From Dehalococcoidia bacterium (GTDB lineage Bacteria; Chloroflexota; Dehalococcoidia; Lucifugimonadales; CAUZJF01): 64,000 bases of DNA. The position numbers and the translations under genes are program-made. The notes beneath the pieces are model-generated. The model worked only from the letters and a program-made list of their open reading frames with translations. It was not told the origin of the DNA and searched no databases. The DNA lies in NCBI GenBank assembly GCA_965237635.1, contig CBDEFX010000002.1:978554-1042553 (forward strand), given 5' to 3'. How positions within the stretch are numbered: the stretch's first letter is position 1; each line of letters begins with the position of its first letter. This document shows, piece after piece, positions 54 through 46,504 of the stretch.

Positions 54-235
54 CTGAAAAATCTGTTCCATTTTGTTCCATTGTGTCCTGCTCAGCTAGG
101 GACCCTGGTACACTGCGGAACAGCGGGGCAAAGAAATGGGACAGGCCGCTTGGGTCTGTCCCTCGGACCAAGTATAGCACCTATGTTCGCGATTGTCTAG
201 GGGCGGAACTTGGAAGCAACTTCTTGCGCAAAGCC
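54..235 (-). repeat. Dispersed promoter-hairpin-decamer module, copy 1
   Basis: Aligns by eye over about 182 bp with 41311-41493 and, more diverged, with 34871-35019. Shared core AAATGGGACAG...CTGTCCC...AGTATAGCAC-N4-GTTCG. Confidence 0.85.
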
Positions 236-257
236 CCTTCGGAAGGAGACGGGATAG

Positions 258-287: not shown

Positions 288-1694
288 TTACCGCCTGGCC
301 CTCGCTCTCGCCAGCGGACGTCCAGCCCTTTTCGGACTGCGCTGCTTATTGCGGTAGTCAGGCGCGTCTAGCCTGATCAACTCACCCACGGAGGGGTCCT
401 GGATTCTCGAACCTATCGGGCCCTGCTCCTCGGGCCGCGTAAAGTCGATCATGGTCGTAATTATCGTAGGCAGGCGCGTGTTGTGCCTGTGCACGATCAT
501 CTGGTGCAGCTTCTCGTCCGCCCACGGACTGCTTCGTTCCCGCCCAAGGTCGTCCAGGATGAGAAGAGGCGTGTTCTTTATCTCCTCGAACCGCTGGTCG
601 TAGGTGACACCACTGTGGGGCTCGAACGTGGCCCTAAGGTGGTCTAGAAGATCGGACACCATGATGAAGAACACGGAGTGCCCCAGCTTGAGCCGTTCGA
701 TCGCGATAGCGACTGCCAGATGCGTCTTGCCCACGCCGGTATCCCCGAAAATCGTAAGCCACCCGTCAGGGTCTGCCGCATAGGTACTGGCGAACTTGTG
801 CGCGTGCTCCAGACTGCGTCGCTGGTCGTTGGTGGGGCTGTTGCCTCGGACGTTGAAGCTCTCGAAGGCCATGGACTCGATCATCCGGTTCGGGATCTGT
901 CCCAGACGGTCGGAGCGGTCGGGCACCCGGCTCCTGAGCTCGATGGCGTGGCTGAGCCCAGGTGTCTGCACCCGGCTTCGTATGTAGGAGTCTAGCTCGT
1001 CCAGAGGGCCCGTCGTCGTGATCACCATCGGGCGTAGGGCATTGTAGCGGTGGTTGATGATCTGCCGTAGCTTCTCATCCGCCCACGCGGTCGTGCTGTG
1101 GGAGCCGAGGCTGTCGAGTATCAACAGCGGCGTGTTGCTCACCAGCTCGAACAGCTCGCTATATGCCGTATCGCTGGTCGGGCCGAAGGTGGCTCGCAGG
1201 TGATCGAGCAGGTCGGGCACGTGCGAGAAAAAGACTACGTGGCCGCGTTCGATGCACCTGTTGCCGATCGCAGCTGCAAGATGGGTCTTGCCTGAGCCGT
1301 GGGGGCCCGCCAGGACCAGCCAGCCGCTGGGACTCTCCGCATACTTCTCCGCGGCACTGTACGCATCTGTGAATTGCCTCTGGCTTTCAGGGTCGTCTGA
1401 CTGGCCGTGAGGCTCCAGGCTGTCGAACGTGAACCGGGTCAGTGCCCCAAGGTTGCTGTAGCGGAGCAGCCGGTCGGTCTGTTCCTGCTCGAGCCGCTCC
1501 TCTTGGCACCGGCACGTGATCGCCTTGCCGAATGCAGGGTCGCCCACAGGCACGTCGGCCGTGTACCAACCCGGGCCTCCGCAGATCTCGCAAGGTTCGG
1601 ACTCGTCGGCCGGACCCGGCGGCGCCGCACCGTCGCTATCGTCGTTGGTGCTGCTCGTATCCAGCCGTTCTAGGATATCGCCCAGTTCCTCCAT
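288..1694 (-). CDS. DnaC/IstB-like helicase loader with two tandem AAA+ domains and N-terminal Cys motif
   Basis: CEICGG...CRC Zn motif; two Walker A motifs (GPHGSGKT, GDTGVGKT); two LLILD Walker B motifs; repeated ITT(N/T/M) sensor; directly downstream of dnaB and dnaD. Confidence 0.85.
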   Translation of the reverse strand: MEELGDILERLDTSSTNDDSDGAAPPGPADESEPCEICGGPGWYTADVPVGDPAFGKAITCRCQEERLEQEQTDRLLRYSNLGALTRFTFDSLEPHGQSDDPESQRQFTDAYSAAEKYAESPSGWLVLAGPHGSGKTHLAAAIGNRCIERGHVVFFSHVPDLLDHLRATFGPTSDTAYSELFELVSNTPLLILDSLGSHSTTAWADEKLRQIINHRYNALRPMVITTTGPLDELDSYIRSRVQTPGLSHAIELRSRVPDRSDRLGQIPNRMIESMAFESFNVRGNSPTNDQRRSLEHAHKFASTYAADPDGWLTIFGDTGVGKTHLAVAIAIERLKLGHSVFFIMVSDLLDHLRATFEPHSGVTYDQRFEEIKNTPLLILDDLGRERSSPWADEKLHQMIVHRHNTRLPTIITTMIDFTRPEEQGPIGSRIQDPSVGELIRLDAPDYRNKQRSPKRAGRPLARARARR

Positions 1695-3839: not shown

Positions 3840-4028
3840 GCCAGTCCCTTGATAAACCCACGCGGCCCTGACCGAAAGGGCCTGCTTTCCCCATGAAACC
3901 TAGTATATGACTAGAAGACCTTCTCGCGAACATGGCATCGGCTTATGTAGGGGCGCAAGGCTTGCGCCCTGCTCTCGATCCCTTCACTTACGGGCGAGGG
4001 TGAGGATGACCACCCCAACCCCGTCCGT

Positions 4029-4430
4029 CCCGAGTGTCCCGGTGCCCTCATCGGGACCGTATCGAGGGAGCCATGCGAACGCCCCTCGATACGGCGCTAA
4101 GAAGCGCCTACTCGGGGTATGCGGAGGCTATGGCCACCACCCACCGAATATCCCGATACCCCATCCGGACGAATCGAGGGACAGGACAGACCATCCCTCT
4201 CGGAACCACGATCCTAGCACCCTACTCGCGGTGTGCGGGAGGCGACGGCCACCACCCACCGAATATCCCGAGTAGTCCCGATGCCCCCATCGGGACGTAT
4301 CGAGGGACAGGACAGACCATCCGTCTCGGAACCATGAAACTAGAACCTACTCGGCGTATGCGGGAGGCGACGGCCATCGCACACCGAATACCCCGAGTGT
4401 CCCGATGTCGCATCGGGACACTCGGGGGGC
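4029..4430. repeat. Tandem array of 114-125 bp units containing family A REP hairpins (BIME/REPIN-like)
   Basis: CTACTCG..GTxTGCGG unit starts at 4108, 4222 and 4347; GAGGGACAGGACAGACCATCC and CACCGAATA(T/C)CCCGA recur. Confidence 0.85.
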
Positions 4431-4446: not shown

Positions 4447-5316
4447 CTAAGCGCCCTCGCGAGTCTCGCCATCCTCGTCCGCCTTCTCTTCTTCCGCAAC
4501 ACTCACATCTTCAGGCGGCGCCTCGGCGACGATCTCAGGGGCCTCTTGCTCTGCGACAGCCTCGTCAGGCTGCTCCTCGGCCTCGGGCGGAGTCTCCTTA
4601 GCGCCAGTGGCCTCTGGCGCCTCTTCCTCCGCAACACTGACATCTTGATGGGGCGCCTCGGCAACGGCTTTGGAGGCCTCCTGCTCTGCGACCGTGTCGT
4701 CAGGCTCCTCATCAACGGCGGCCGTGTCTTCGGCTGGCGTGTCCGTTTCGATTTCGGTGGCTTCTACCTGCGCGACGGCAACGTCCCCGTCGGACGACTC
4801 GCCGGCCTCCTTCTCGGCCTCCGCCTCCCGGGCCGCCTCGAAGCTCTCAAGGAATTCAACAGGGTCGGTGCCCGCCGGATGGACCAGAAGCTTGATGTCG
4901 GTCTCCACCTCTGCGTGAAGCCTTATCCGGAGATCAAAAAGTCCAACCTCGCGGATCGACTCGGGAATCGAGATCGTCCGTCGGTCGATCTCTCGCTCGG
5001 CAATCTTCGCCAGCCCCTCGGCAACGATGGCGTTTGTCACTGACCCGTACAGGCGGCCGCTCGCTCCGGCCCTCATCTCTACGTTTAGCTGGGCGCCGTC
5101 AAGCGCCTCGCGGAGATCCTTCATATCCGCTAGCGTCTTGGTCCGCGTCGCTTCGGCTTCCTTCTTCAGCCGTTCGACACGCTGTAACGCGTCTTTCGTG
5201 ATAGGCGTCGCCAGACGCTTTGGGATCAGGTAGTTACGCGCGAACCCGGCCTTGACCTCCTTGACGTCACCCCCTTGGGCGACACCGGTCACGTCCTCCA
5301 AAAAGACCACTCTCAT
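4447..5316 (-). CDS. rplI: 50S ribosomal protein L9 with about 140-aa acidic C-terminal extension
   Basis: MRVVFLEDV..GDVKEVKAGFARNYLIPK, GRLYGSVT; tail rich in E/A/D. Confidence 0.97.
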   Translation of the reverse strand: MRVVFLEDVTGVAQGGDVKEVKAGFARNYLIPKRLATPITKDALQRVERLKKEAEATRTKTLADMKDLREALDGAQLNVEMRAGASGRLYGSVTNAIVAEGLAKIAEREIDRRTISIPESIREVGLFDLRIRLHAEVETDIKLLVHPAGTDPVEFLESFEAAREAEAEKEAGESSDGDVAVAQVEATEIETDTPAEDTAAVDEEPDDTVAEQEASKAVAEAPHQDVSVAEEEAPEATGAKETPPEAEEQPDEAVAEQEAPEIVAEAPPEDVSVAEEEKADEDGETREGA

Positions 5317-5634
5317 ATCGTAGTACCTCGGATACTTCAGAAGTTCAGAATCGGGACAATCCGTCTATCCCGAGTAGTCACGATTCCCCGTGGGACGTAT
5401 CGAGGGACCTGTCCCGAGCTAAGTGGAAGTCTAGACTTCCAAGCTGGACGTAGGCGCGGATTTCAAACCCGCCCTCCCTCCTCCGCACTGAGTTTGCGGA
5501 AGTGGGAGGCCGTCGAAAGACAGGTCTCGATTGGCCGGATTATAACATGCCGCGCCCACAATCAGTAGGGTCAATGACGGGGAATTCGGGGTGCAATTTC
5601 CTTCTTGAAGCCCCGCCCTGACGTGCCCATCACA

Positions 5635-6770: not shown

Positions 6771-7841
6771 TTAGGCGCCCTTCAGGACTTTGAAGGCGGC
6801 GGGGTCGACAAGGAGCGAAACTTGCTGGCCCGGCTCTAGTATGGCACCGGAGAGGTCCGGCAGCAAACGGCAGAAGAGAGCGCCCTCTCCGACGCTGACC
6901 TTGAGCTCGTACTCGCTGCCCCGGAACACCCTTTCCACGATGGTCCCCGTGAGCGTGTTCTTCTCCGGGGGTCCGTCGTCGACCGTCAGGCCCACGGCTA
7001 TCCCGCTCTCCTTGATTAGCAGCGTGTTCTCACCCTCAGGCGCCGATTGCTGGCTCAGGGTGAGAGTTCCGACAGCGCACTCGATCTCAGTGGTCTCGCC
7101 ATGGCGCCGCACGACCCCTCGCATAATGTTCTTGAACCCCAGGGACCGGGCAACGAACTCGTCGCCGGGGTCGTCGAAGACCTCCTTGGCGGTACCGGTC
7201 CGGACTATCTTGCCCTCGTTCATGAACATCAGCCTGTCGGCCATTGCGAAGGCCTCGTCCCTGTCGTGCGTGACGTAAATAGCTGTCGCACCCACCCTCT
7301 TAAGGATGGCGCGCATTTGGACCTGAAGCGAGTCCCTCAGGGCCCTGTCCAGTGCTCCCAGGGGCTCGTCGAGCATCAAAAGCCGGGGGGCCGGCGCCAG
7401 CGACCGCGCCAGCGCTACACGCTGCCGTTCGCCCCCGGAGAGCTCGTGGACCTTTCGCTCGGCGAAGCCGGCCATGTCGACCAGGGCCAGCAGTTCGTGG
7501 ACCCGCTCCCGGACGGCCGCCTTCGGCAGACGCTGCATACGCAGTCCGAACGCCACGTTTCCAAACACGTCCATATGAGGGAACAGCGCCAGGTCCTGGA
7601 ACATCAGGCCGAAACCCCGCTCTTGCGCGGGGACTCCACCAAGCGGCTCGCTGTCGATGGAGACAGTCCCTTCGTCCGGCTCGTCGATCCCGGCGATGAG
7701 TCGAAGGAGCGTGGTCTTACCCGAGCCGCTCGGTCCTAGCAGGCACAGGATCTCCCCCTTTTCGACCACGAAGGAGACCCCATCGACGGCCACGGCTATA
7801 TCGAAGGACTTAGAGAGGCCGGAGACCTCGAGGAGCGCCAT
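6771..7841 (-). CDS. ABC transporter ATP-binding subunit (ThiQ/PotA-like)
   Basis: GPSGSGKT, LSGGERQR, LLMLDEP; start placed at MALLEV (7841), overlapping the permease stop (ATGA). Confidence 0.92.
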   Translation of the reverse strand: MALLEVSGLSKSFDIAVAVDGVSFVVEKGEILCLLGPSGSGKTTLLRLIAGIDEPDEGTVSIDSEPLGGVPAQERGFGLMFQDLALFPHMDVFGNVAFGLRMQRLPKAAVRERVHELLALVDMAGFAERKVHELSGGERQRVALARSLAPAPRLLMLDEPLGALDRALRDSLQVQMRAILKRVGATAIYVTHDRDEAFAMADRLMFMNEGKIVRTGTAKEVFDDPGDEFVARSLGFKNIMRGVVRRHGETTEIECAVGTLTLSQQSAPEGENTLLIKESGIAVGLTVDDGPPEKNTLTGTIVERVFRGSEYELKVSVGEGALFCRLLPDLSGAILEPGQQVSLLVDPAAFKVLKGA

Positions 7842-9505
7842 CAGAAAGCGCCCGCGCCCCTGTAGCGAAACCTTTCGATAGCAACGAATCCCAGGGCGAC
7901 TACGACCATGAGCAGGCTGCTCATTGCCAGCGCTTTGCCCAGGTTCGCGGCGCCGGGCAGGCCGAGGAATCGGAAGATCGCGACCGGCATAGTCGTGAAC
8001 TCGGGCCGCACGAGCAGCAAAGAGGCCCCGAACTCGCCCATCGAGACAGCGAAGGCGAATGTGGCTCCGACCAGAAGCGCCGGGGCGATGATCGGCAGAT
8101 CGACAAACAAAAAAACCCGTGCCGGAGAGGCGCCCAGGACCCTGGCCGCCTCTCTGAGGTTCGGGTTCATGCCTCGCAGCACCGGCAGAAGGCTCCTGAT
8201 GACGAAGGGATACGCTATCAACGAGTAAGCGATGACCAGGATTAGCCACGAGCCTCGAAGGTCCAGCGGCGGGCGGTTCAGCGTTATCAGATAGCCGAAT
8301 CCCAGGGTCACCGCGGAGACGCCTAGCGGCAGCATGAAGAGGGCGTCGGCAACGCTCGTCCCGCGTCGGCCTGGCCGCGAGAGGAAGTATGCGACGGTCC
8401 CCCCAAGGACCAGGGAGATGGCAACAGTCGCCAATGCGAACCTGACCGAGTTCCACATGACGGTCACCGGCGAGAGGTAGAAGTAGGAACCCCGTTCGTC
8501 GGAGAACAGGTTGGCGACGTGGGCAGGAGTGTAGCCGTCGGCTGCCGAGACCGCCCGAACTACCAGCGCGATGAGCGGCGACAGAACGACAAGCAGGTAC
8601 AAGAGCATGGCGAATATGAACACCCTGTCGCCGACCCGCAGCTTGCGGCGAACGGTGGCCGTTCGGGCCGTCAGATTCATGGGAGCCGCGCTGGACTCCT
8701 GAAGCCTCGTGTACAGCAGCAGAAAGACGTACGTGAAGACGAGCTGGATGACCGCCAGAGCGCCCGCGAGCGGCAGCCGGAACAGCTTGGCCGTGAGCTC
8801 GTATATGGCGACCTCGAGCGTGGCGAGCTGCGCTCCGCCCAGGATGAGCACGACGCCGAAGCTGGTGAACGAGAAGGCGAACGCCAGCAGCGCGGAGGAC
8901 GCGATCGCGGGCAGCAGCAGGGGCAAAGTCACATGGTAGAAGGTCTGGACTCGTCCGGCGCCCAACACCTTGGCCGCCTCCTCAATAGAGGGGTCGAGAT
9001 TCGCCCACAGCGCCGAGACGATGCGTACCACGATGGCGTAGTTGTAGAAGGCGTGGGCCATGAAGATGATCGTCAGCGTGTTGGTGATCTTGATCGGGGG
9101 CTCACTGAGGTCGAAGGTGTCCATCAGGACGGAGTTCACGACGCCCTGTGATCCGAAGAGGGCCACGAACCCCATGGCCACGACGATCGTAGGCATCACG
9201 AAGGGGACCGTGGTCACGGCCTTCAGAAGGCCTTTGCCCGGGAACTCGTACTTGGCGAAGAGGTAGGCTACAGGCAGTCCGAGCGCCACAGAAAGAAGCG
9301 TTGAGACGAGGGCCTGCCAGGTGGTGAACCAGATACGGCCTAGGTAGTACGAGTCTCCCAATATGGAGCCGAACGGTCCGAGGTCGAGCCCCCCTTCACC
9401 GACGAGGCTTCGGCCAAGGATCGCTACGAGCGGGTACAGGAAGAAGAGGCCCAGATATCCAAGCGGCACGACCAACAGAAAGCGACCAAGCCTCAGCCGG
9501 CTCAT
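7841..9505 (-). CDS. thiP: Thiamine ABC transporter permease (ThiP-like, two permease domains)
   Basis: Two EAA loops (IEEAAKVLGA, LREAARVLGA); start at MSRLRLGRF (9505); between thiB and the ATPase. Confidence 0.88.
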   Translation of the reverse strand: MSRLRLGRFLLVVPLGYLGLFFLYPLVAILGRSLVGEGGLDLGPFGSILGDSYYLGRIWFTTWQALVSTLLSVALGLPVAYLFAKYEFPGKGLLKAVTTVPFVMPTIVVAMGFVALFGSQGVVNSVLMDTFDLSEPPIKITNTLTIIFMAHAFYNYAIVVRIVSALWANLDPSIEEAAKVLGAGRVQTFYHVTLPLLLPAIASSALLAFAFSFTSFGVVLILGGAQLATLEVAIYELTAKLFRLPLAGALAVIQLVFTYVFLLLYTRLQESSAAPMNLTARTATVRRKLRVGDRVFIFAMLLYLLVVLSPLIALVVRAVSAADGYTPAHVANLFSDERGSYFYLSPVTVMWNSVRFALATVAISLVLGGTVAYFLSRPGRRGTSVADALFMLPLGVSAVTLGFGYLITLNRPPLDLRGSWLILVIAYSLIAYPFVIRSLLPVLRGMNPNLREAARVLGASPARVFLFVDLPIIAPALLVGATFAFAVSMGEFGASLLLVRPEFTTMPVAIFRFLGLPGAANLGKALAMSSLLMVVVALGFVAIERFRYRGAGAF

Positions 9506-9510
9506 TCCGG

Positions 9511-10605
9511 TCAGCGGAGCACGACCTTCGTCCAGGCGTCTATCCACTCCTCCCGCTTCTCGTCGATGGTGGCGGGGTCGATGTCCGCCGGCAGGGTCGG
9601 CACCTGGGCGAAGCTGAAGAAGTCCGGGGTCTGGGCCTGGCTGTTGACCGGGTAGACGAACATCTTGCCCGGGATGTCCTCCTGGAAGCGCCTGTCCAGA
9701 GCGTAGTCGACGAAGCGCTGAGCGAGGTCCAAGACCTTGGTGCCTCTGAGGATGCCGATCCCTTCGATCTGAAGGAAAGTGCCCCGGTCGACCAGCAGGT
9801 TGCCCGTCGGAGGATCCGTGTATTTGCCCTCCGAAAAGAAGACCTCGGCGGCCGGGCTGGTGGCGTAGCTCACGACTAGCGGTCGGTCGCCACCGTACTT
9901 GGTAAAATCGGTGTAGTAGGCGTTGCTCCAGCCGTCCTTCACCACCACGTCGTTGGCCCGCAGGTCCGCCCAGAAGTCGAGGTAGTCGTAGTCGTCGTCT
10001 TCCCCGAAGTACGAGACCGTGGCGATTAGAAAGGCGAGGCCGGGCGACGATGTCGGCGGGCTCTGCACCACAAGCTTGCCCTTCCACTTTGGCTGGGTCA
10101 GTTCCTCCAACGTGGTGGGTGTCGTCAGGTTGTTCTCCGCCAGGTACTCCTTGTCGTAGTTGATGTTGACGTAGCCATAGTCCACGGGGTTCACGTGAAA
10201 GGTATCGTCCAGGATGAACTGCTCCTGTACGTTGGCCACCAGCGGTGACTCGTACACGACGAATATCTCTTCCCTCAGCGCCCTGGTCAGGTAGGTGTTG
10301 TCCACGCCGTAGAGCAGGTCTGCGGACGGGTTTCCCTTTTCAAGGATGGCGCGGTTCAGGACCTCCCCAGCGTCGCCGCCCTTGAGAATAACGACCTTGG
10401 CGTTGTTGGCCTGCTCGAACTCCCGGATCACCTCGTCGCCGATATCGAAGCTGTCGTGGCTCAGCACCTTCAGCTCACGTGGCTCGGACGGCGTGGGCGT
10501 CGCGGCCGGAGGCACGGCGGTTGAGGCCGTGTCCTCCTCGCCGCAGGCCATCGCCAGCAAGACGAGCACCGTCGCTACGGTCGTCATCGCTCGAAGCTTA
10601 ATCAT
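9511..10605 (-). CDS. thiB: Thiamine ABC transporter substrate-binding lipoprotein
   Basis: Lipobox AMAC; LKVLSHDSF, GDAGEVLNRAIL, DLLYGVDN, VVSYATSP; downstream of a TPP riboswitch. Confidence 0.93.
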   Translation of the reverse strand: MIKLRAMTTVATVLVLLAMACGEEDTASTAVPPAATPTPSEPRELKVLSHDSFDIGDEVIREFEQANNAKVVILKGGDAGEVLNRAILEKGNPSADLLYGVDNTYLTRALREEIFVVYESPLVANVQEQFILDDTFHVNPVDYGYVNINYDKEYLAENNLTTPTTLEELTQPKWKGKLVVQSPPTSSPGLAFLIATVSYFGEDDDYDYLDFWADLRANDVVVKDGWSNAYYTDFTKYGGDRPLVVSYATSPAAEVFFSEGKYTDPPTGNLLVDRGTFLQIEGIGILRGTKVLDLAQRFVDYALDRRFQEDIPGKMFVYPVNSQAQTPDFFSFAQVPTLPADIDPATIDEKREEWIDAWTKVVLR

Positions 10606-10673: not shown

Positions 10674-10689
10674 AATCTATACAGACGTT

Positions 10690-10790
10690 ACCTCATCCCT
10701 ACGCTGGCATTACCCAGATCAGGTCACGGGGTCGTCCCAACACGTTGGGACCTCTCAGCCTGGCTTCCCAAGCTCCCCCCGGGTATGTAT
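10690..10790 (-). ncRNA. TPP riboswitch
   Basis: Minus strand GGGGAGC..GGCTGAGAGG..GACCC..GACCTGATCTGGGTAATGCCAGCGTAGGGA matches the TPP aptamer core; upstream of thiamine ABC genes. Confidence 0.95.
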
Positions 10791-12791: not shown

Positions 12792-12947
12792 GTTTGTGCT
12801 CTTTCCCTAACTTCGGCTTACATATTGTTTAACGTTATTGTACCCCTGTGAGTTGCATATGTTCACAATGTAGCCGGGAAACGTCCGTTCTGATATGATA
12901 CTGCGTGCGGACACGAAAAGCCTTATAATAGGGCAGCGCGCTCCCGC

Positions 12948-12973
12948 ATAGAGACGCCCCGCTGGGGCGTCTC
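12948..12973 (+). repeat. REP palindrome family B (GTAG-AGACGCCCC-GCT-GGGGCGTCT)
   Basis: Five copies: 12948 (ATAG variant), 31158 (-), 48561, 54621, 58048. Confidence 0.88.
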
Positions 12974-20473: not shown

Positions 20474-20776
20474 TTACCAGCGCCGTTCGAAGTCTCCGCC
20501 GCCGCCGCCGCCGCGACGGCCGCCGCCGGAGTCCTCTCTGGGTCGGGCCTCGTTGACGGTAAGCGTTCGGCCATTGAAGTCCTGGCCGCTCAGTGCTTTT
20601 ATCGCGGCCTCCGCCTGCGCGTTGTCCGGCATCTCCACGAAGCCAAACCCTCTCGAGCGGCCGGAGTAGCGGTCGGTGATCACCCTTGCGGTGGCTACTT
20701 CTCCATGCTCGGAGAACGCGACCTGCAAGGACTCCTCTGTCGTCTCAAACGGTAGATTGCCTACATAAATGTTCAT
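20474..20776 (-). CDS. RRM RNA-binding protein with Gly-rich tail
   Basis: NIYVGNL (RNP2), RSRGFGFVEM (RNP1), VNEARPRE. Confidence 0.96.
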   Translation of the reverse strand: MNIYVGNLPFETTEESLQVAFSEHGEVATARVITDRYSGRSRGFGFVEMPDNAQAEAAIKALSGQDFNGRTLTVNEARPREDSGGGRRGGGGGGDFERRW

Positions 20777-21302
20777 GCGGCGCTCCTTATTAGATTCTCC
20801 TCAGCCCGTAGCAAGCACCGCGTGCGAGTCATGTGTCAATAACAGGAAACGCAGGAAGCGGAACGAGTGCAACTTGGTCTCGGAGTCGACGATATTGTAC
20901 CACGGACGGTCTTGTTTTGGGAATCCCTCGTCCGCCGCATGCGGGAGAGATTATGGACCATCAACCGGGGGACAGCCTCTCTGTCTGCCGGTGTTTGGTT
21001 GTCTGCACGCCTCTGACACTTGTTGGCGCGTTGTCTTCTGCATGGGTCCGGAGCTGGCGCGTTTTCCGGCAGAACGCTTTGAGCTGCTGTTCTTTGACGG
21101 TCGAACAGCGATGGAACCGGCGAGCCGTTTTACGGTCGCTCGCAACCGTTGGGTGGCCGCTCCTCTACGGTCGAAACGGCCAACTGAACCGGTGGGCTTT
21201 ATTCACGGTCTCCCGCTACCGTGACCGAAGCCAAAGGACATGTGACAGCCTCGGCCAACTCAACGATCACGCCGGACGTTTGCCAGCTCAGGACTCCGGA
21301 CC

Positions 21303-21403
21303 CCAGGGTAAAAAGAAACGGACGCCTCGACAAGCTCGTTGCTGACTTGCCGACGGGCCTGTCCCTCACAAACCAGGATAGCACACGTGTTCGGTTTTGT
21401 TAA
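21303..21403 (-). repeat. Dispersed promoter-hairpin module, copy 4 (partial)
   Basis: Minus strand TTAACA-17 bp-TATCCT with CGAAC-ACGT-GTGC in the spacer, then GAGGGACAG...GTCCGTTTCTTTTTACCC. Confidence 0.7.
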
Positions 21404-21694
21404 AGGCCCGCATGACCTCAATATTATGGTTGCTGAAGATGGGAACAATCCCACCACTTTGGCAAAGGGTTCAGGGAACGGGCGTGATTAGGAGTGGCGG
21501 TCGTATGTGGGCAGAGGGCGCACGCTTTGCGCCCCTACGAATCGCACCCTGGGAATAGGGTCCGGCGCACGATATAGGGCTTGTCGGCTGACGTACCCAG
21601 GTTGACTGGCCGCCGAGGTGCGCATAGAATGCTGGCGTCGGCGCTGGTGGGACGGAGCGAGGGCCTCCACATCACGCGTTCCAGGAGGAGAGCG

Positions 21695-21934: not shown

Positions 21935-22059
21935 TCGCATGCCCCTCGATACGTCCCGATGGGGCGTCGGGACTACTCCCCTCGATACCGTGCCTGCGGC
22001 ACGTACTCGGGACGGACGGACGGATGGATGGCTGCCTGATGACCATCCGTCCTTAGCTG

Positions 22060-28182: not shown

Positions 28183-28282
28183 CTAATCAAAGGGGGGTCC
28201 CTCGATACGTCCCGATGGGGCATCGGGACTACTCGGGATAGGCGGGGTAGGGTAGGGTAGGGGTCAGGATCTCCCGCACTTG

Positions 28283-32029: not shown

Positions 32030-32390
32030 GGCCGTGTCGGACCTACCTTTCTAGAGGGTGGTCGGCGTGTGCTTGGATCTTAGGGGCGACCCACATTCTA
32101 CATACAAATCGCTGCTCGTGCCATAGGCAGGCTTTCGACAAGCTCCGACTTCGGCAAGCTCAGTGCAGGCTTCGACCATACTCTAGGACAGGCCCCTCGA
32201 TACGTCCCGATGCCGAATCGGGACTACTCGGGGTGGACGGAGAGTGTGGTCTCTGCCGGTTCGTGGTAAGCCCTTTGGGTGGTGAAGGTGGAACAAGGGA
32301 CCACACCTCTCCAGGCTCTTCGTTCCGATGCCGAATCGGGGACTCAGGGAGACAAATTGGAGGCGACTCGTGCAAAGCCGACGCAACCTC

Positions 32391-34769
32391 CTAGATCCCC
32401 AGGGCGCCGAAGCAGGCCGCCATTATGCTGCCGGAGTCGATCTCGTACTCACGGTAGAGCTCGTCGGGGTTGCCTGACTGGCCGAACCTAGTCACGCCCA
32501 GCGGGTAGGTTGCTGTGTTGAGCGCGCCGCCGATCCAGGCCAACGAGTGTGGGTGCCCATCGATGACCGTGACGACGGGGGCGTTGCGCTCGGCGACGGG
32601 TATGACGTCGTCCATGAAGGGCGACGCTCTGGACTGCCCTCTAAGGTTGGCCTGCACGGTCTCCTGGAATCTTCTGTAGAGCGGACCTGGGCCTGTGGCG
32701 TTCACCACGTTCGCGAAGACGCCCTCCTCCATCAGGAGCCGGCTGGCCTCGATGGCCTCGGGGACGACCACCCCGCTGGCAACGATGTGGACCACGTTCG
32801 AGCCGGGACGGTAGCCGGGCTCGCGGCTGCGGTCGACCTGCTTGTACGCGCCGTCGATCACCTGCCGGCGCAGACGCTCGAGGGCCGCCGGGTCTGTGGG
32901 AGGCTTGAACAGGTCCTGGTTGACCCGCATCGTGGTCAGTCTCAGGTACGCGCTCTCCTCGCGAAGGCGGACCTTGTCCAGGGCCGACAGGATGATCCAC
33001 TCGAGCTCCTGGCCGAAGCAGGGCTGGTAGAAGGAGATGTCCGGCAGCTCCACGCCGATAGAGGGCGTCACCAGGGACTGGTGTGAGCCGCCTTCCGGGC
33101 CGAGGGTGACCCCTGATGGGGTCCCGACCACTATGAACCGCGCCCCGGCGTTGACGCTGTAGACGTACGCGTCCAGGCCCCGACGCACGAATGGGTCGTA
33201 GAGCGTGCCGATCGGGAACAGCAGCTCGCCGTTCATCTCATGGGAGAGCCCCAGCTGGCCCAGGCACAGGAACAGGTTGTTCTCCGATATCCCTAGCTCG
33301 ATGTGTTGGCCGCGGTCGGACTCGGTCCATTGCAGGGCCCTGATGCCGTCCTCTTCGGGCATCGACTCGTTCTCTCTTTTACCCCATACGCCGGCCTTGT
33401 TGATCCAACCTCCCAGATTGGTCGAGCTGGCGACGTCCGGGCTCACGGTCACCAGTCTCTCAGCGACGTCGGGAGCGTTGCGCGAGATGTCGGTGAGGAC
33501 GAGGCCGAAGATCTGCTGGGTCGACATCTTGCCCTGGTAGGTGCGGCCGAACCCATGGGGGATGTCCATCTCAGGCGGCGGGACTCGCTGGTCTTTGCTG
33601 AGCTGCAGCCGGTAGCCGGCATCCAGGCATAGCCTTCCAGCCGCGGAGTCGGACGGCAACCTGGACGACATCTCTTCGGTCGAGATGCCAAGGTCGGCCC
33701 TAAACTCCTCCATCTGCTCGCTATTCATGTTTACCGAATGGTTCTGCGCGTCCCCGACCGAGGGCAGCATCCAGCCCTTCAGGGTGTAGGCGAACATTAC
33801 GTTTGGCCCGGTCGTGTCCACCTGGTCGAACGCCTCGGCGAGCACCTCGAAATCGTGTCCACCCAGGTTGTGGAACAAGGCCCTGAGCTCGCTATCGTCC
33901 CATTGGGAGATGAACTGGGCCATGTCGTCCGGCAAGCGGCTGGCGCGCGGGAGCCATTCTCTTAAGGTGGGCCCGTCCACCCGGACCAACCGCTGGTACA
34001 GGTCGTTGGACATCTCGTCGATGCACTCGCGCAGCAGGTCGCCCTTCGGCTCCGCGTAGGCGGCCTGAAGCTTCTTTCCGTACTTGGCGTCGATGACCTT
34101 CCAGCCGTTTGCGCGGAACATCTGTCGCCAGACCTCCACACGGATGCCTGGAATTATTCGGTCGAGGCTCTGGCGGTTCAGGTCGATTATCCACAGGACG
34201 TTCTTGATGTCGGTAAGGGCAGGCTCGGCGATCGCCTCCCAGACGACACCCTCGTCCAGCTCCGCGTCACCGAGGAGGCTGATGTAGCGACGGTCGATCC
34301 CGCTGTCCGGCTGCGTATGGCTGCGGACGTACTCTTCCGTCAGCCATGCGAAGTTGGGGGCCACCGCGCCCAGCCCGACCGAACCGGTCGAAAAGTCGAC
34401 GCCGTCCGGGTCTTTGGTCCGGCTCGGATACGCTTGCAGGCCGTGGAAGCCCCTGAGCGCCTTCAGATACTCGGCGTCGAGGTTCCCGAGGAGGTACTGA
34501 ATGGCATGGAACACAGGCGAGGAGTGAGGCTTGATCGATATCCGGTCTCCGGCCTTCATGAACTCGAAATACAGGTAGGTCAGGATCGTGACGACGGAAG
34601 CACTGGAGGCCTGGTGGCCTCCGACCTTAAGGCCAGTGGGATTGGGGCGGCCGTGGTTGGCGTAGTCCACCATGTAGACGGACAGCCATAGCACGCGCTT
34701 TTGGACCTCGTCGAGTATCTTGTACCGCTCGGTGGCGGCGTCGACGCCAGCTACAACGTCGGTTGCCAT
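32391..34769 (-). CDS. TPP-dependent pyruvate dehydrogenase E1-like (AceE/transketolase-type) enzyme
   Basis: KVGGHQASSAS, YPSRTKDPDGVDFSTGSVGLG, GDAELDEG TPP motif, LGISENN, EGGSHQS. Confidence 0.9.
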   Translation of the reverse strand: MATDVVAGVDAATERYKILDEVQKRVLWLSVYMVDYANHGRPNPTGLKVGGHQASSASVVTILTYLYFEFMKAGDRISIKPHSSPVFHAIQYLLGNLDAEYLKALRGFHGLQAYPSRTKDPDGVDFSTGSVGLGAVAPNFAWLTEEYVRSHTQPDSGIDRRYISLLGDAELDEGVVWEAIAEPALTDIKNVLWIIDLNRQSLDRIIPGIRVEVWRQMFRANGWKVIDAKYGKKLQAAYAEPKGDLLRECIDEMSNDLYQRLVRVDGPTLREWLPRASRLPDDMAQFISQWDDSELRALFHNLGGHDFEVLAEAFDQVDTTGPNVMFAYTLKGWMLPSVGDAQNHSVNMNSEQMEEFRADLGISTEEMSSRLPSDSAAGRLCLDAGYRLQLSKDQRVPPPEMDIPHGFGRTYQGKMSTQQIFGLVLTDISRNAPDVAERLVTVSPDVASSTNLGGWINKAGVWGKRENESMPEEDGIRALQWTESDRGQHIELGISENNLFLCLGQLGLSHEMNGELLFPIGTLYDPFVRRGLDAYVYSVNAGARFIVVGTPSGVTLGPEGGSHQSLVTPSIGVELPDISFYQPCFGQELEWIILSALDKVRLREESAYLRLTTMRVNQDLFKPPTDPAALERLRRQVIDGAYKQVDRSREPGYRPGSNVVHIVASGVVVPEAIEASRLLMEEGVFANVVNATGPGPLYRRFQETVQANLRGQSRASPFMDDVIPVAERNAPVVTVIDGHPHSLAWIGGALNTATYPLGVTRFGQSGNPDELYREYEIDSGSIMAACFGALGI

Positions 34770-34870
34770 ACAGTCCTCCGGAATCGCAGGGCTTCTTAGG
34801 CCGAGAAACGGGGCCCGGCGGGCGCTTCGGAATAGTATAGCACCGGCGCTCGATCAGGTGAGTCGCGACA

Positions 34871-35019
34871 TTTGAAAAAGTGTCTCATTCTGTCTCATTG
34901 TGTCCCATTTAGCTAGGGGGAGGTGGGACACCTCGGGACACTCTGGGCAAAAAAATGGGACAGACTCGGGGGGTCCGTCCCTCATGACAAAGTATAGCAC
35001 ACTTGTTCGGGGACTTCCA
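34871..35019 (-). repeat. Dispersed promoter-hairpin-decamer module, copy 2
   Basis: Decamers GTGTCTCATT/CTGTCTCATT/GTGTCCCATT, AAATGGGACAG hairpin, AGTATAGCAC-ACTT-GTTCG. Confidence 0.8.
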
Positions 35020-35181
35020 GGGTCTACTTGGTCCACTCACGGTCATTCTAAAAGGTCCTGTTTGACATCCCTCAGGGTAATCGGATGTGTGAAGTCCGTT
35101 CGCGGTGAGCGGACTTCGACCTCGCTCAGGACTGGCCGTCGGAGCGCGGGCGAACGAAAAGGGGCACGGCATGCCGTGCCC

Positions 35182-35288
35182 CTACGGGGCCTCGGCGCCC
35201 AGGTAGGGAGCCGCCTAGCCGAGGCCGTCGACGGTGGTGGTAAGCGGTTGTACTTGCAGCCCACCCAGCCGTCGTAGCCCATCTTGTC
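35182..35288 (-). pseudogene. 3' fragment of a hydroxypyruvate isomerase (Hyi)-like gene
   Basis: DKMGYDGWVGCKY, then after a frameshift PLTTTVDGLG*AAPYLG; resembles the Hyi C-terminus GWVGCEYKP..T..GL.W with TGG changed to TAG. Confidence 0.65.
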
Positions 35289-36926: not shown

Positions 36927-36993
36927 TTTTGAGGATACCTCGTCATGCGATGCATTGATCATAGGTTGATCCCTCTCATTTAGGGCTTCCTAA

Positions 36994-38714
36994 GCCCGAA
37001 TCCACCGAAGGACACCGATGGACGGCGTGAGGAAAGCGGAAGGGGGGTGAGGGAGCTACAGGGGAAATAGCCTGGGTTCCATTTGGGGTAGGGAGGTCGG
37101 CGGACGGTCTTCATCGCCGCACAGGGGCCCCTATGGCCGTCTGCGGGAGCTGCGATGCGCGGGATGGCGAGAGAATACGCAGCAGGGAACTCTCTCGGAC
37201 CGGGCTGGCACGAGTCTGCGGGGATCTTCGGTTGTCCGGTGGGTGGGTCGGTCGCCGACGGTGCCGTCAGGCCGGGAGTGGAATGGCTCGCAGCCGGGCC
37301 AAGGCGCGGCTGAACTTCTCAGCCCAAGGCCAGCGATCCGGAAGATGCAGGGTCAACCGGCGTGCCGAGCGGGTGAGCCGTCCGGCCAGGGAGAAGAACC
37401 GCCGCCGGAGGGTTTTGGTGGTGGCTATCCGCTCTCCCAGACCGATCCGCGCCGTCCAGCGGGCCAGGTTGTGGGCCATCGTCTGGACGGCCAGCCAGGC
37501 GCCGTTGGCGGCGAAGCGGCCCGAGGGGAGATGGTTCAGCCCGACGCCGTACTTGAGGTCGCGTATGGTATTCTCGATCTCGGCGTGGCGGCGATGGTCA
37601 GCCTCCAGTTCGAGCAACTCCCCGTCTCGGTCGGTGATGAAGCCATGATAGCTGTATTTGGCGAAGAGGGCCAGTTGGGAACCGGGCGTCGGCTTCACCC
37701 GCCGGACGATGAGCCGTACCGGCGCGGCGTCCGCCTCGGCCTGGAAGGGGGTGCAGGTGGTCTCGGCCACATCGGCGGCACCGTCCATCCAGTAAGGAAT
37801 CGGCGTCCAGGCATCTTCGGGTATCGCCTCGATGAGATTGTGCAGGCTTTTGTGCTGGCGGATGGTGATGGAGAAGCGGACATCCATCTTGCGGCAGACG
37901 GATACCACGCCATGAGTGTAGAACCCGCTGTCGGCCCGTAGCGTGAGTCGTCCGTCGGCCCCGGCGTAGCGCACCCGTCCCACCGTCTCCCGCAGGAAGT
38001 GGGCGGCGCCGCGGGCGGTGTTGGCCCGGCCCTCGCGCAGCCGGGACATCAGCACGTCTCCGGTGCCGGCGGCGATGGCCAGCAGCGGGTGGTAGCCCCG
38101 CTTGCCGGTATAGCCGTGGTGGCGGGCGCCCTCCTTGGCCAGTCCGTAGGTCTCGCAGATGGTGGAGTCCAGGTCAATGGTCAGGGGCCCGTCGCCGGGT
38201 CCCGCCCCGGCCTGCCAAGCCCGGGCCAGCAACTCGCGGCTCACCCGGTCGAGTTGACGGACGTGGCCCCACCGGAAGCTGCGCAGGAAGGTGCCCAGGG
38301 TGGATGGCGCCTTGACCGTGCCGCCCAGGGTGCAGGCCGTCCCCCCGGTGCGCAACACATCGGCGTCGTCAATGCAGTCGCCCCCAGCCAGCGCAGACGC
38401 CACCAGCGTCATCATCTTGTCGCTCGTGTTCGCCCGCCCCGGGGCATCGCCCAGGTCGAGGCGCTGCCGGACGAGTTCGGGCAGGCCGAGGTGCCGCGCC
38501 AGGGTGGCCGGAAGGAGCAGCCCGGCATTGGCCACCAAGCGGCGGTCGTCGAAGGTGATTTGGATCCGGTCGGGGTGGTTGCGTGGCAGCATCTACTGGG
38601 TGCTCCTTTTCCGGGGTCGTTTTTTTGCTACAAAACCATTATCCCAGAAGCACAGGAGCGCCTTCTTGCCGCCTCAGGACGCTAACCCGACGCCCTCCTT
38701 CGGTGGATTCGGGC
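36994..38714 (-). mobile_element. IS1380-family element, copy 1 (1721 bp)
   Basis: Terminal inverted repeats GCCCGAATCCACCGAAGGA; flanked by TAA/TAA on the plus strand. Confidence 0.93.
37267..38592 (-). CDS. IS1380-family transposase (intact)
   Basis: LVANAGLL, GGDCIDD, TIDLDST, LRADSGFY, HRRHAEIEN..IRDLK, FAANGAW. Confidence 0.95.
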   Translation of the reverse strand: MLPRNHPDRIQITFDDRRLVANAGLLLPATLARHLGLPELVRQRLDLGDAPGRANTSDKMMTLVASALAGGDCIDDADVLRTGGTACTLGGTVKAPSTLGTFLRSFRWGHVRQLDRVSRELLARAWQAGAGPGDGPLTIDLDSTICETYGLAKEGARHHGYTGKRGYHPLLAIAAGTGDVLMSRLREGRANTARGAAHFLRETVGRVRYAGADGRLTLRADSGFYTHGVVSVCRKMDVRFSITIRQHKSLHNLIEAIPEDAWTPIPYWMDGAADVAETTCTPFQAEADAAPVRLIVRRVKPTPGSQLALFAKYSYHGFITDRDGELLELEADHRRHAEIENTIRDLKYGVGLNHLPSGRFAANGAWLAVQTMAHNLARWTARIGLGERIATTKTLRRRFFSLAGRLTRSARRLTLHLPDRWPWAEKFSRALARLRAIPLPA

Positions 38715-38799
38715 TAAGCAGGTTGTACAGGAATAGGGCCGCCAAGCTACCGAGTACCCCTGACCTGCCCCAGTAATTGTACCAGATTAAACCTCGCAT

Positions 38800-41218: not shown

Positions 41219-41310
41219 CTGTCAGTCGGGCTAGCCTCCCTCGATACGTCCCCCCGATGCGGCATCGGGGTCGCATCGGGACTACTCGGGATGAACGGGT
41301 TGGTAAAGCT

Positions 41311-41493
41311 CTGAAAAATGTGTTTCATTTTGTTGCATTGTGTACCACTCAGCTATGGGATTCCGGTACACCGCGGAACATCCGGGCAAAGAAATGGGAC
41401 AGGCCGCTTGGGTCTGTCCCTAACAGCTAGTATAGCACCTATGTTCGCCATTGTCGAGGGCTGAGGACTTGAAGCGACTTCTTGTGCAGAGCC
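41311..41493 (-). repeat. Dispersed promoter-hairpin-decamer module, copy 3 (between pheS and pheT)
   Basis: Colinear with 54-235; GGGCAAAGAAATGGGACAGGCCGCTTGGGTCTGTCCCT and AGTATAGCACCTATGTTCGC are identical. Confidence 0.88.
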
Positions 41494-41545
41494 GCATCAG
41501 GGCGTATCGACGGAGATGATCGATTCACGATTATTTGAGGCCTAA

Positions 41546-46404: not shown

Positions 46405-46504
46405 GTCATTCCGAGAAGTCCTCGACGAGGAATCTAAATGGTTGCGGTGAGTTAACGTTGGTTAATGATGACCGTCTAGATTCCTCGCGGAGCCTCGGAA
46501 CGAC
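46405..46504. repeat. GTCATTCCGAG..CGAGGAATC / GATTCCTCG..CTCGGAACGAC inverted cassette (REPIN-like)
   Basis: Inverted arms around a 40-bp spacer; an analogous cassette with different arms lies at 54731-54855. Confidence 0.65.

What the first reader, a model, noticed from the sequence alone, without database searches (positions are those of the whole stretch)
138..199. Four-copy non-coding module: LexA-like boxed promoter firing straight into a terminator-like hairpin (candidate DNA-damage-induced tiny RNA or attenuator family)
Seen, on the minus strand at four unrelated loci (138-199, 21303-21403, 34957-35019, 41396-41457): a -35 hexamer (TAGACA, TTAACA, TGGAAG, TCGACA), an exact 17-bp spacer, and an extended -10 (TGcTATACT in three, TGcTATCCT in one). 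Every spacer holds CGAAC-N4-GTGC. A (G)AGGGAC motif starts 6-7 nt after the -10, at the expected +1, and opens a hairpin whose loop varies while the stem is kept. A U-rich run follows (AUUUCUUU, AUUUUUUU, GUUUCUUUUU). Established: the LexA box of Firmicutes, Actinobacteria and Chloroflexi is GAAC-N4-GTTC, one base from this motif, and boxes between -35 and -10 repress. Inference: a dispersed family of about 35-70 nt SOS-regulated RNAs, or terminated leaders needing antitermination, possibly spread as a small mobile unit. None of the annotated genes explains it.
Basis: partly seen in the sequence, partly recalled or inferred. Interest (0 to 1): 0.8.

Follow-up and report, generated by a model that had tools for sequence, protein, structure and literature searches.

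The report
Dispersed promoter-plus-terminator repeat in a Chloroflexota genome
The four look-alike sites are real, but three are copies of one ~190-bp repeat that looks like a tiny self-contained transcription unit copied into new intergenic spots in this lineage only, and the proposed DNA-damage (LexA) control has little support.

Summary
Four minus-strand sites share a -35, an exact 17-bp spacer, GTGCTATMCT, a CGAAC in the spacer, (G)AGGGAC opening a GC-rich hairpin, and a U-run (4 exact matches vs 0.08 expected).

Sites 1, 3 and 4 are not independent. They are copies of one ~190-bp dispersed repeat (85% and 73% identity) that continues ~90 nt past the hairpin. It runs through a second hairpin with a conserved loop and 10-nt phased repeats, and ends in all three copies at ...TTTTTCA. 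Site 2 shares only the promoter, the hairpin base and the U-run.

The pheS-pheT copy sits in a 328-bp gap that is 37-81 bp in three relatives. About 135 kb from related genomes holds no copy. Rfam, plasmid, phage, viral, GTDB-genome and metagenome collections give nothing.

The 'GTGC' half of the LexA-like box is this organism's general extended -10 (GTGnTAYAMT, also at ordinary genes). Only CGAACA is specific to the module. No SOS gene could be reached, and one sister strain reads CGGAC.

Best reading: a new, lineage-specific family of promoter-bearing intergenic repeats, or sibling small-RNA-like units. Each would give a short ~35-40-nt RNA and probably a ~125-nt read-through RNA. Expression, function and the copying mechanism are untested. 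Interest is moderate to low.

The parts
54..243 (-). Repeat copy 1 (site 1), full ~190-bp unit. It lies downstream of the rplI-dnaB-dnaD-like-dnaC/I-like operon.
   Evidence: Self-BLAST 54-235 vs 41311-41493 at 85%; alignments; CM R1 128.7 bits; neighbouring genes.
171..199 (-). Site 1 promoter-like site: TAGACA, 17 bp, TATACT with GTGC extended -10; CGAAC at 185-189.
138..162 (-). Site 1 hairpin 1, GGGACAGACC-caagc-GGCCTGTCCC (-15.1 kcal/mol), followed by the U-tract ATTTCTTT at 130-137.
63..123 (-). Site 1 extended hairpin 2. Inverted units TGTTCCG and GTGTACC pair with the phased direct units GGACAC, GGAACA and GGAACA. The conserved loop CCCTAGCTGA is at 92-101.
54..62 (-). Site 1 terminal U-run ATTTTTCAG. 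Similarity between the copies ends here.
41311..41502 (-). Repeat copy (site 4), lying antisense in the pheS-pheT intergenic gap (41219-41545, 328 bp).
   Evidence: The gap is 81, 52 and 37 bp in three relatives.
41429..41457 (-). Site 4 promoter-like site: TCGACA, 17 bp, TATACT with GTGC; CGAAC at 41443-41447.
41388..41420 (-). Site 4 hairpin 1 (41396-41420, identical to site 1) plus the U-tract ATTTCTTT.
41311..41380 (-). Site 4 hairpin 2 (GGTGTACC / GGTACAC, loop CCCATAGCTGA), direct units GGTACA, GCAACA and GAAACA at an exact 10-nt period, and the terminal ATTTTTCAG.
34872..35076 (-). Repeat copy (site 3). It lies ~100 nt upstream of the start of the E1/transketolase-like gene (32391-34769, -) and downstream of an IS256/Mutator copy.
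34991..35019 (-). Site 3 promoter-like site: poor -35 TGGAAG, 17 bp, TATACT with GTGC; CGAAC at 35005-35009.
34949..34981 (-). Site 3 hairpin 1, GGGACGGAC-ccccccga-GTCTGTCCC (-15.8 kcal/mol), plus ATTTTTTT. The scanner flags it as terminator-like.
34872..34941 (-). Site 3 hairpin 2 (GGTGTCCCA / TGGGACAC, loop ...CCCTAGCTAA), direct units GGGACA, GAGACA and GAGACA at a 10-nt period, and the terminal CTTTTTCAA.
21310..21403 (-). Site 2, a partial relative. It has the promoter TTAACA-17-TATCCT with CGAAC (21375-21403), a long hairpin at 21320-21365 (-22.6 kcal/mol) and GTTTCTTTTT. It lacks the downstream repeat part and keeps only a loop-like CCTGAGCTGG at 21283-21292.
   Evidence: The CM does not detect it.
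34834..34852 (-). Ordinary promoter of the E1-like gene (CGAGCGCCGGTGCTATACT). It is not a family member but shows that GTGCTATACT is a generic promoter core.
41225..41290 (-). REP-type element (GTAG plus palindrome family A) directly beside site 4. It is a second repeat that enlarges the pheS-pheT gap.

Best explanation
This is a lineage-specific family of ~190-bp intergenic repeats. Each copy is a small self-contained transcription unit, and the unit has been copied to new intergenic places. Each copy carries a housekeeping-sigma promoter, with a -35-like hexamer, a 17-bp spacer and the organism's usual GTG-n-TAYAAT-type extended -10. Transcription is inferred to start at the purine just before GGGAC. 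The first ~30 nt fold into a GC-rich hairpin followed by a U-tract. Most transcripts should therefore stop there as a ~35-40-nt RNA, and that stop should also end transcription coming in from upstream genes. Polymerases that read through would make a ~125-nt RNA. This longer RNA contains a second hairpin with a conserved C-rich loop (YCCCUAGCUGAG), nested in a longer imperfect stem, and it ends at a second U-run that coincides with the end of the repeat. Copies persist only where their one-directional stops do no harm: after an operon, upstream of genes that keep their own promoter, or antisense between pheS and pheT. Shown: the repeat family, its anatomy, its absence from relatives and the enlarged pheS-pheT gap. 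Inferred: transcription, the two RNA sizes, any RNA function and the way it is copied.
For: The repeat family and its exact shared 3' boundary come. The same extended -10 serves ordinary genes. Hairpin 1 is -15 to -23 kcal/mol, is followed by a U-tract, and has no T-run on the opposite strand. RNAalifold keeps hairpin 1 and an extended hairpin 2 with 93% of cells paired, two compensatory pairs (C-G in site 3 against A-U or U-A) and G-U pairs that work only on this strand. Site 2 has a different stem but a similar loop motif. Substitutions between copies fall in the discriminator, the loops and the linkers, while the promoter elements and stems stay intact. Folding z-scores are -2.0, -4.0 and -1.2. 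The pheS-pheT gap is 328 bp against 37-81 bp in syntenic relatives. No copy occurs in ~135 kb of related genomes.
Against: There are no expression data. With three sequences covariation is not significant (186 of 500 shuffles do as well). The patchy identity between copies could come from gene conversion instead of selection. Sister-strain contigs show clustered changes inside the core, not extra conservation, though these contigs have only 3-5x coverage. The family is absent from relatives, which is unusual for a functional small RNA. A strong terminator at +35 makes the downstream RNA hard to produce from this promoter. The 10-nt phasing of the direct repeats fits DNA-binding sites as well as it fits RNA pairing. 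No copying mechanism is evident, because there are no inverted ends and no target duplication. No complementary targets for the loop are enriched in the window.
Confidence: 0.45

Rival explanations
1. It is a selfish or neutral DNA repeat, a non-autonomous mobile element like a MITE or REPIN. On this reading the hairpins and phased 10-bp units are recognition sites for a transposase or recombinase acting on DNA, and the promoter and terminator are incidental cargo or by-products.
For: The copies are dispersed, intergenic and lineage-specific, and one sits in the enlarged pheS-pheT gap. The genome is rich in IS and REP elements. Three direct units at an exact 10-nt period lie beside an end that finishes in CA, with two inverted units upstream. 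All four copies are on one strand. Sister strains show no extra conservation of the core.
Against: There are no terminal inverted repeats, no target-site duplication and no similarity to the ends of any IS in reach. The copies are old (73-85% identity), while the IS copies are 99% identical. The variable position of the inverted and direct units co-varies as base pairs would, with G-U pairs, which a DNA-binding array does not predict. The promoter elements are the best-conserved parts.
Confidence: 0.27
2. This is the first reader's version: a LexA-repressed (SOS) family of tiny RNAs, or attenuated leaders, with the operator CGAAC-N4-GTGC lying between the -35 and the -10.
For: CGAACA is present in the spacer of all four sites, including the otherwise diverged site 2, and is absent from five ordinary promoters that share the same -10. 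GAAC-N4-GTTC is the Gram-positive-type LexA motif (PMC3323433). From my own memory, Dehalococcoides LexA binds the same motif. The box position would give repression.
Against: The second half-site is GTGC, not GTTC, in every copy, and that GTG is the generic -16/extended -10 element (8 vs 0.43 expected), so only one half-site is left. The relaxed motif GAAC-N4-GTKC is not enriched in the window (6 vs 4.25 expected), and the single canonical box sits upstream of rpsP. The window has no SOS genes to compare with. Three of the four boxes are copies by descent. The sister-strain copy reads CGGAC.
Confidence: 0.08
3. The promoter is real, but the unit works mainly as a DNA or RNA-level regulatory cassette for neighbouring genes. 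Options are a mobile terminator or insulator, or a promoter whose read-through is set by a factor acting at the 5' hairpin (processive antitermination, as at lambda PR'-tR').
For: Sites 2 and 3 point towards downstream genes (RRM protein, E1-like). Site 1 follows an operon that has no other U-tract terminator. The arrangement of a promoter, a conserved spacer motif and an immediate terminator resembles late-promoter antitermination units (my own knowledge).
Against: Both downstream genes have their own promoters after the module. In relatives the RRM promoter and leader are conserved but site 2 is not. Site 4 points into the 3' end of pheS. No antiterminator gene or phage context is nearby.
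Confidence: 0.12
4. The modules are decayed 5' ends (promoter, leader and first codons) of a once multi-copy gene such as a transposase or a toxin.
For: An ATG preceded by a GGA/GGG-type Shine-Dalgarno sequence lies in the conserved part, and the first ~9 codons are similar between copies (M-x-Q-N-G/E-T-x-F).
Against: All three copies lose similarity at the same nucleotide (...TTTTTCA). The ORFs run only 14-21 codons into unrelated flanks. The codon changes show no coding pattern. Two protein-database probes with translated frames found nothing.
Confidence: 0.05

Closest known systems
Putative mobile promoters and promoter-bearing intergenic repeats (Correia elements, ERIC, REPIN), as reviewed in PMC3575422
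   Same: Near-identical non-coding sequences containing a promoter lie next to unrelated genes within one genome. They are intergenic and dispersed, they carry transcription signals, and most have no Rfam match or known function.
   Different: There are no terminal inverted repeats, no target duplication and no GTAG-plus-palindrome signature. Copy number is low and the copies are old (73-85% identical). The promoter fires into its own terminator-like hairpin rather than outward.
Sibling small-RNA gene families (for example Qrr, LhrC and the csRNAs; named from my own knowledge)
   Same: There are several dispersed copies of a ~100-150-nt unit. Each has its own conserved promoter, stem-loops, a conserved C-rich loop and a terminal U-run.
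   Different: Expression is not shown. The family is absent from related genomes. A strong terminator-like hairpin sits at the very 5' end. No regulator or target is known.
LexA-controlled small RNAs and type I toxin-antitoxin loci (istR/tisB, symR/symE, dinQ/agrB; from my own knowledge)
   Same: These too are small, often multi-copy non-coding transcription units.
   Different: The box is not a full LexA palindrome. There is no conserved small hydrophobic ORF, no antisense partner and no SOS context.
REP / BIME elements bound by RAYT transposases
   Same: Hairpin-forming intergenic repeats occur in the same genome, and several GTAG-plus-palindrome families lie beside the modules.
   Different: The module is five times longer, has no GTAG, and carries a promoter and U-tracts.
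Lambda-type late promoter PR' with the immediate terminator tR' (Q antitermination; from my own knowledge)
   Same: A strong promoter is followed closely by an intrinsic terminator, and a conserved motif lies between the -35 and the -10.
   Different: There is no phage context, no Q-like gene and no downstream operon to switch on, and the unit occurs as multiple short copies.

Membership tests
Gram-positive-type LexA (SOS) operator | Palindrome GAAC-N4-GTTC (CGAACRNRYGTTCG) | tested here: not met
   All four sites read CGAAC-N4-GTGC. The deviating GTG belongs to the generic extended -10, GTGnTAYAMT.
Gram-positive-type LexA (SOS) operator | The same motif upstream of the organism's recA, lexA and uvr genes | not testable with these tools
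   No SOS gene lies in the window or in the fetched loci. The rest of the genome could not be reached.
Gram-positive-type LexA (SOS) operator | Motif kept under selection in close strains | tested here: inconclusive
   L001 and L002 are identical to the window. L018 reads CGGAC, but it is a 3x-coverage contig.
Sigma-70/SigA-type promoter | -35 and -10 hexamers 16-18 bp apart, TG-extended -10 | tested here: met
   Sites 1, 2 and 4 score 9-10 of 12 with TG. Site 3 has a weak -35 but the same extended -10. Activity was not tested.
Intrinsic (Rho-independent) terminator | GC-rich stem-loop directly followed by a U-rich tract | tested here: met
   The stems are -15.1, -15.1, -15.8 and -22.6 kcal/mol, followed by AUUUCUUU, AUUUUUUU or GUUUCUUUUU. 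Termination efficiency was not tested.
MITE (non-autonomous DDE-transposon derivative) | Terminal inverted repeats and target-site duplication | tested here: not met
   The best self-versus-reverse-complement match is only the internal hairpin, and the flanks share no duplication.
MITE (non-autonomous DDE-transposon derivative) | Ends similar to a resident IS | tested here: not met
   There is no similarity to the ends of the IS256, DDE_Tnp_1_4 or IS66 copies, or to the IS110 region in L007.
REP / REPIN | GTAG tetranucleotide next to a short imperfect palindrome, often in inverted doublets | tested here: not met
   The REP families of this genome have that signature. The module hairpin is preceded by CGAG, TTAG or TGAG, and the module is a 190-bp unit.
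IS110/IS1111 bridge or seek RNA | Non-coding RNA gene inside the element, on the same strand as and beside the DEDD recombinase gene | tested here: not met
   IS110 genes lie near site 1 only. They are on the opposite strand, ~170 nt away, and show no sequence similarity. Sites 3 and 4 have no recombinase nearby.
Any Rfam family | Covariance-model match | tested here: not met
   The gathering-threshold scan of the window found only a TPP riboswitch. E-value scans of sites 1 and 2 gave noise only.
Type I toxin-antitoxin locus | Conserved small hydrophobic ORF with an antisense RNA | tested here: not met
   The ORFs that start in the module run 14-21 codons, are not hydrophobic, and diverge beyond the repeat boundary.
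Sibling small-RNA gene family | Own promoter, conserved fold supported by covariation, 3' terminator | tested here: inconclusive
   A promoter and two U-run stops are predicted. The fold is 93% paired with 2 compensatory pairs, but that is not significant with n=3.
Sibling small-RNA gene family | Detectable transcript | not testable with these tools
   No transcriptome data were available.
Putative mobile promoter (PMP; PMC3575422) | At least 80% identity over at least 50 nt upstream of non-paralogous genes in one genome | tested here: met
   Sites 1 and 4 are 85% identical over 184 nt next to unrelated genes. The PMP definition does not require that the mobility mechanism be known.

The most novel reading that the evidence does not exclude
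This could be a new kind of self-propagating small transcription unit in Chloroflexota. It would spread without inverted ends or target duplications. Its ~35-nt 5' hairpin RNA, or its ~125-nt read-through RNA, would be a regulated product, possibly damage- or stress-controlled through the module-specific CGAACA site in the promoter spacer.
Probability: 0.1. Interest if true: 0.7.

Novelty: new member of a known kind. Interest (0 to 1): 0.35.

Why it matters
If the units are transcribed, they would be the first described multi-copy small-RNA or mobile-promoter family in this uncultured Chloroflexota lineage. They would show how ready-made promoter and terminator signals get scattered between genes, even between pheS and pheT, and can rewire or insulate transcription. 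The work also gives a general caution: a 'LexA-like box' that overlaps a -10 region can be produced by the organism's ordinary extended -10 motif. Without expression data it remains an ordinary-looking, though neat, intergenic repeat family.

Tried and rejected
**IS21 end.** The IstB-type hit next to site 1 is a DnaC/DnaI-like loader in an rplI-dnaB-dnaD operon, not an IS.

**IS110 bridge or seek RNA.** IS110 genes lie just beyond the window start, but on the other strand, and they are unrelated in sequence.

**MITE.** There are no inverted ends, no target duplication and no IS-end similarity.

**More copies.**
- The GTDB species genomes gave 3 chance hits.
- The JGI metagenomes gave 1 chance hit.
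- Three viral-contig patterns gave chance hits only.
- Plasmid and phage BLAST gave none.

**Sampling more of this genome through its transposases.** This returned only the window's own locus.

**Translated-frame probes of the protein databases, to catch mis-called ORFs over other copies.** These found nothing.

**Viral contig with 10-bp CATTGTGTCY arrays.** The arrays sit next to terminase genes. The resemblance is a short unit at about chance frequency, so I dropped it.

**Site 2 as a conserved leader of the RRM-protein gene.** In relatives, homology starts only at that gene's own promoter (20908), so this is rejected.

**Targets complementary to the hairpin 2 loop.** These are not enriched.

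**CsrA-type GGA motifs, parS, DnaA boxes and integrase arm sites.** I considered these by eye for the phased units. None fits across the copies.

Full report
**Observation**

Reading the four sites on the minus strand confirms the description.
- Each site has a -35-like hexamer, an exact 17-bp spacer and GTGCTATACT (GTGCTATCCT at site 2).
- CGAAC-N4-GTGC lies in every spacer.
- (G/T)AGGGAC starts 6-7 nt after the -10 and opens a GC-rich hairpin, which is followed by a U-rich run.

The 19-nt pattern CGAACNNNNGTGCTATMCT has four exact matches and one one-mismatch match (34834-34852), against 0.08 expected. A simple consensus scanner independently calls the promoters at sites 1, 2 and 4, all with a TG extension, and calls the site 3 hairpin a terminator.

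**True extent**

The sites are not four independent inventions. A self-comparison of the window shows that 54-235 matches 41311-41493 at 85% and 34873-35009 at 73%. So sites 1, 4 and 3 are copies of one dispersed repeat of about 190 bp.
- The repeat starts roughly 45-100 nt upstream of the -35.
- It continues ~90 nt beyond the first hairpin.
- It ends in all three copies at the same nucleotides...(A/C)TTTTTCA.

Site 2 shares only the promoter, the base of the hairpin (GGGAC...GTCC), the U-run and a short loop-like motif. A covariance model built from the three full copies does not detect it. The fifth, one-mismatch match is the ordinary promoter of the E1/transketolase-like gene.

**Anatomy of a full copy (minus strand)**
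- The promoter comes first.
- A 7-8-nt discriminator follows, and it is almost completely different in every copy.
- Hairpin 1 is GGGACRGACC...GGYCTGTCCC, at -15 to -16 kcal/mol. At site 2 it is a longer hairpin of -22.6 kcal/mol.
- The tract AUUUYUUUGCCC follows hairpin 1.
- Two inverted units follow (UGUYCCG and GUGUMCC).
- Next is a 16-18-nt loop with the conserved sequence YCCCUAGCURAG.
- Three direct units G-N-N-ACA then follow at an exact 10-nt period.
- The copy ends in a terminal U-run.

RNAalifold keeps hairpin 1. It pairs the inverted units with the first two direct units into an extended hairpin 2.
- 93% of cells are paired.
- Two pairs are compensatory: site 3 has C-G where sites 1 and 4 have A-U or U-A.
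- Several G-U pairs work only on this strand.

With three sequences the covariation is not significant, because 186 of 500 shuffles do as well. None of the hairpins is followed by a T-run on the plus strand, so the stops are one-directional.

**Context and distribution**

The organism is an uncultured Chloroflexota with 62% GC. Its nearest named relatives are SAR202 and Chloroflexota MAG proteins at ~71-76% identity.

| Site | Position |
|---|---|
| 1 | Follows the rplI-dnaB-dnaD-like-dnaC/I-like operon |
| 4 | Antisense in the pheS-pheT gap |
| 3 | Upstream of the E1-like gene, which keeps its own promoter after the module |
| 2 | In a ~650-bp non-coding stretch between a small AsnC/Lrp-type gene and an RRM RNA-binding-protein gene that also has its own promoter |

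In three relatives with conserved pheS-pheT-moeA synteny the pheS-pheT gap is 81, 52 and 37 bp. In the window it is 328 bp. The extra DNA is the module plus a REP-type element.

In relatives, homology around the RRM gene starts only at that gene's own promoter (window 20908), so site 2 is not a conserved leader. About 135 kb from related genomes (L008-L010, L014-L016) contains no copy and not even the GTGCTATMCT-GGGAC combination.

Nothing similar exists in Rfam, in plasmids or phages, in the viral contigs, in the GTDB species genomes or in the JGI metagenomes.

**The LexA idea**

GTGnTAYAMT occurs 8 times in the window against 0.43 expected. Four of those sites precede ordinary genes (RRM, E1-like, Ldh_2, SelA-like), and another lies upstream of a Fic/Doc locus. 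A relative also uses GTGCTATACT before RNase PH.

So the 'GTGC' half of the proposed operator is simply the organism's -16/extended -10 element. What is specific to the module is CGAACA in the spacer, which the ordinary promoters lack. That is a single half-site.
- The accepted Gram-positive-type motif is the palindrome GAAC-N4-GTTC (PMC3323433), and no copy meets it.
- GAAC-N4-GTKC is not enriched in the window (6 vs 4.25 expected). The only canonical box lies upstream of rpsP.
- The window has no recA, lexA or uvr gene for comparison.
- Three of the four boxes are identical by descent.
- A 99%-identical sister-strain contig reads CGGAC (low coverage).

LexA control cannot be excluded, but it has no positive support.

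**Selection or not**

Between sites 1 and 4 there is perfect identity over the spacer and -10 (20 nt) and over 45 nt from AGGGAC to TTTGCCC. The discriminator differs at 5 of 7 positions, and the loop and linker segments are similarly scrambled. Site 3 shows the same pattern. This fits purifying selection on the promoter and stems, but patchy gene conversion between copies would look the same.

At strain level the core is not extra-conserved.
- L018 has four changes clustered in the box and in the 5' arm of the hairpin.
- L017 has one change in the -10 and one in the stem base of site 2.
- L001 and L002 are identical to the window.

I leave this open.

**What it is not**
- It is not an IS21 end. 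The IstB-type hit is a DnaC-like loader.
- It is not an IS110 bridge or seek RNA. The neighbouring IS110 genes are on the other strand and unrelated.
- It is not a MITE. It has no inverted ends, no target duplication and no IS-end similarity.
- It is not a REP. The genome has several GTAG-plus-palindrome families, which are different.
- It is not a coding remnant. The ORFs that start in the module run 14-21 codons into unrelated flanks, and all copies lose similarity at one and the same nucleotide. Two protein-database probes found nothing.

**Most likely mechanism**

The repeat boundaries coincide with a promoter-upstream region on one side and a U-run on the other, so the simplest reading is a copied small transcription unit.
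- A strong housekeeping-type promoter starts at the purine before GGGAC.
- Hairpin 1 plus its U-tract stops most transcripts at about +37, and it also stops incoming transcription.
- Read-through gives a ~125-nt RNA with hairpin 2 that ends at the second U-run.

Because the stops are one-directional, copies survive after operons, upstream of genes that retain their own promoter, or antisense inside the pheST operon. I put about 0.45 on this 'sibling small-RNA-like or mobile-promoter unit'. I put about 0.27 on a selfish DNA repeat whose hairpins and phased units are protein sites, about 0.12 on a regulatory cassette for neighbouring genes, 0.08 on LexA control and 0.05 on decayed gene starts.

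**Limits**

Only three full copies and one partial copy could be studied. The organism's genome is not in the searchable collections, and all attempts to sample more of it failed. Transcription, termination efficiency, regulator binding and the copying mechanism are all inferred.

Noticed in passing
window 10679-10789 (-): A TPP riboswitch (68.5 bits, above the gathering score) lies upstream of a solute-binding protein, permease and ABC ATPase operon (9511-10605, 7841-10087, 6771-8456, all minus). This is probably a thiamine or precursor transporter.
   Followed up: partly
window 4264-4308, 5361-5408, 21943-21978, 28197-28240, 32194-32240, ~41225-41290, 46301-46344: REP-type repeat family A has the consensus ...CCCGAGTAG-TCCCGATG-cccc-CATCGGGA-CGTATCGAGGGAC (GTAG plus an imperfect palindrome). 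It ends in GAGGGAC, the same heptamer that opens the module hairpin. One copy abuts site 4.
   Followed up: partly
window 12946-12973, 48559-48586, 54622-54650, 58046-58073; also 262-280, 3951-3969, 21516-21534, 35160-35183: Two further GTAG-plus-GC-palindrome families are present (CGTAGAGACGCCCCGCTGGGGCGTCTC and GGGCGCA-N5-TGCGCCC). Copies of the second kind lie 60-140 nt upstream of sites 1, 2 and 3. This suggests a RAYT-type REP system in this genome.
   Followed up: partly
window 36991-38722 and 49853-51586: Two 99%-identical copies of an IS encode a 441-aa DDE_Tnp_1_4 transposase. The second copy appears to split a large ABC-transporter gene (48643-49176 and 51463-54591), which is a single ~1200-aa gene in relatives L008 and L010.
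   Followed up: partly
L018 6436-7650 against window ~46442-46458: A sister strain (99.1% identical) carries a Mutator/IS256 insertion that the window lacks. The site is about 100 bp downstream of the REP family A copy at 46301-46344. This points to recent IS activity.
   Followed up: no
L007 9376-10449 and 11350-12312 (just beyond window position 1): Two different IS110-family (DEDD) transposase genes in tandem, plus another DDE_Tnp_1_4 IS, lie directly downstream of site 1. Their ends and any bridge-RNA regions were not defined.
   Followed up: partly
window 20474-20776 (-) with 20777-20923: A glycine-rich RRM-type RNA-binding protein gene has its promoter (GTGGTACAAT) and ~110-nt 5' UTR conserved at ~77% DNA identity in three relatives. 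That is unusually well kept for a leader, so it may be regulatory.
   Followed up: partly
window 288-1694 (-): A 468-aa helicase-loader-like protein has two IstB/DnaC-type AAA+ modules. It is the last gene of an rplI-dnaB-dnaD-like operon and is about twice the usual DnaC/DnaI length.
   Followed up: no
window 4107-4419 and 4486-4713: Tandem DNA repeats lie in and next to the rplI gene. The predicted L9 protein is 289 aa, far longer than usual, which suggests a repetitive C-terminal extension.
   Followed up: no
window 61722-62105 (-) and 62391-62400: A Fic/Doc-family gene has a GTGCTATAAT promoter ~290 nt upstream. There is room for a small antitoxin ORF, so this may be a toxin-antitoxin pair.
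   Followed up: no
L030 6140-6460 and L034 7560-7800 (one IMG/VR contig): An unrelated AT-rich virus has arrays of 10-bp CATTGTGTCY iterons beside its terminase genes, duplicated at two places on the contig. It is probably a packaging-site region within a terminal repeat.
   Followed up: partly
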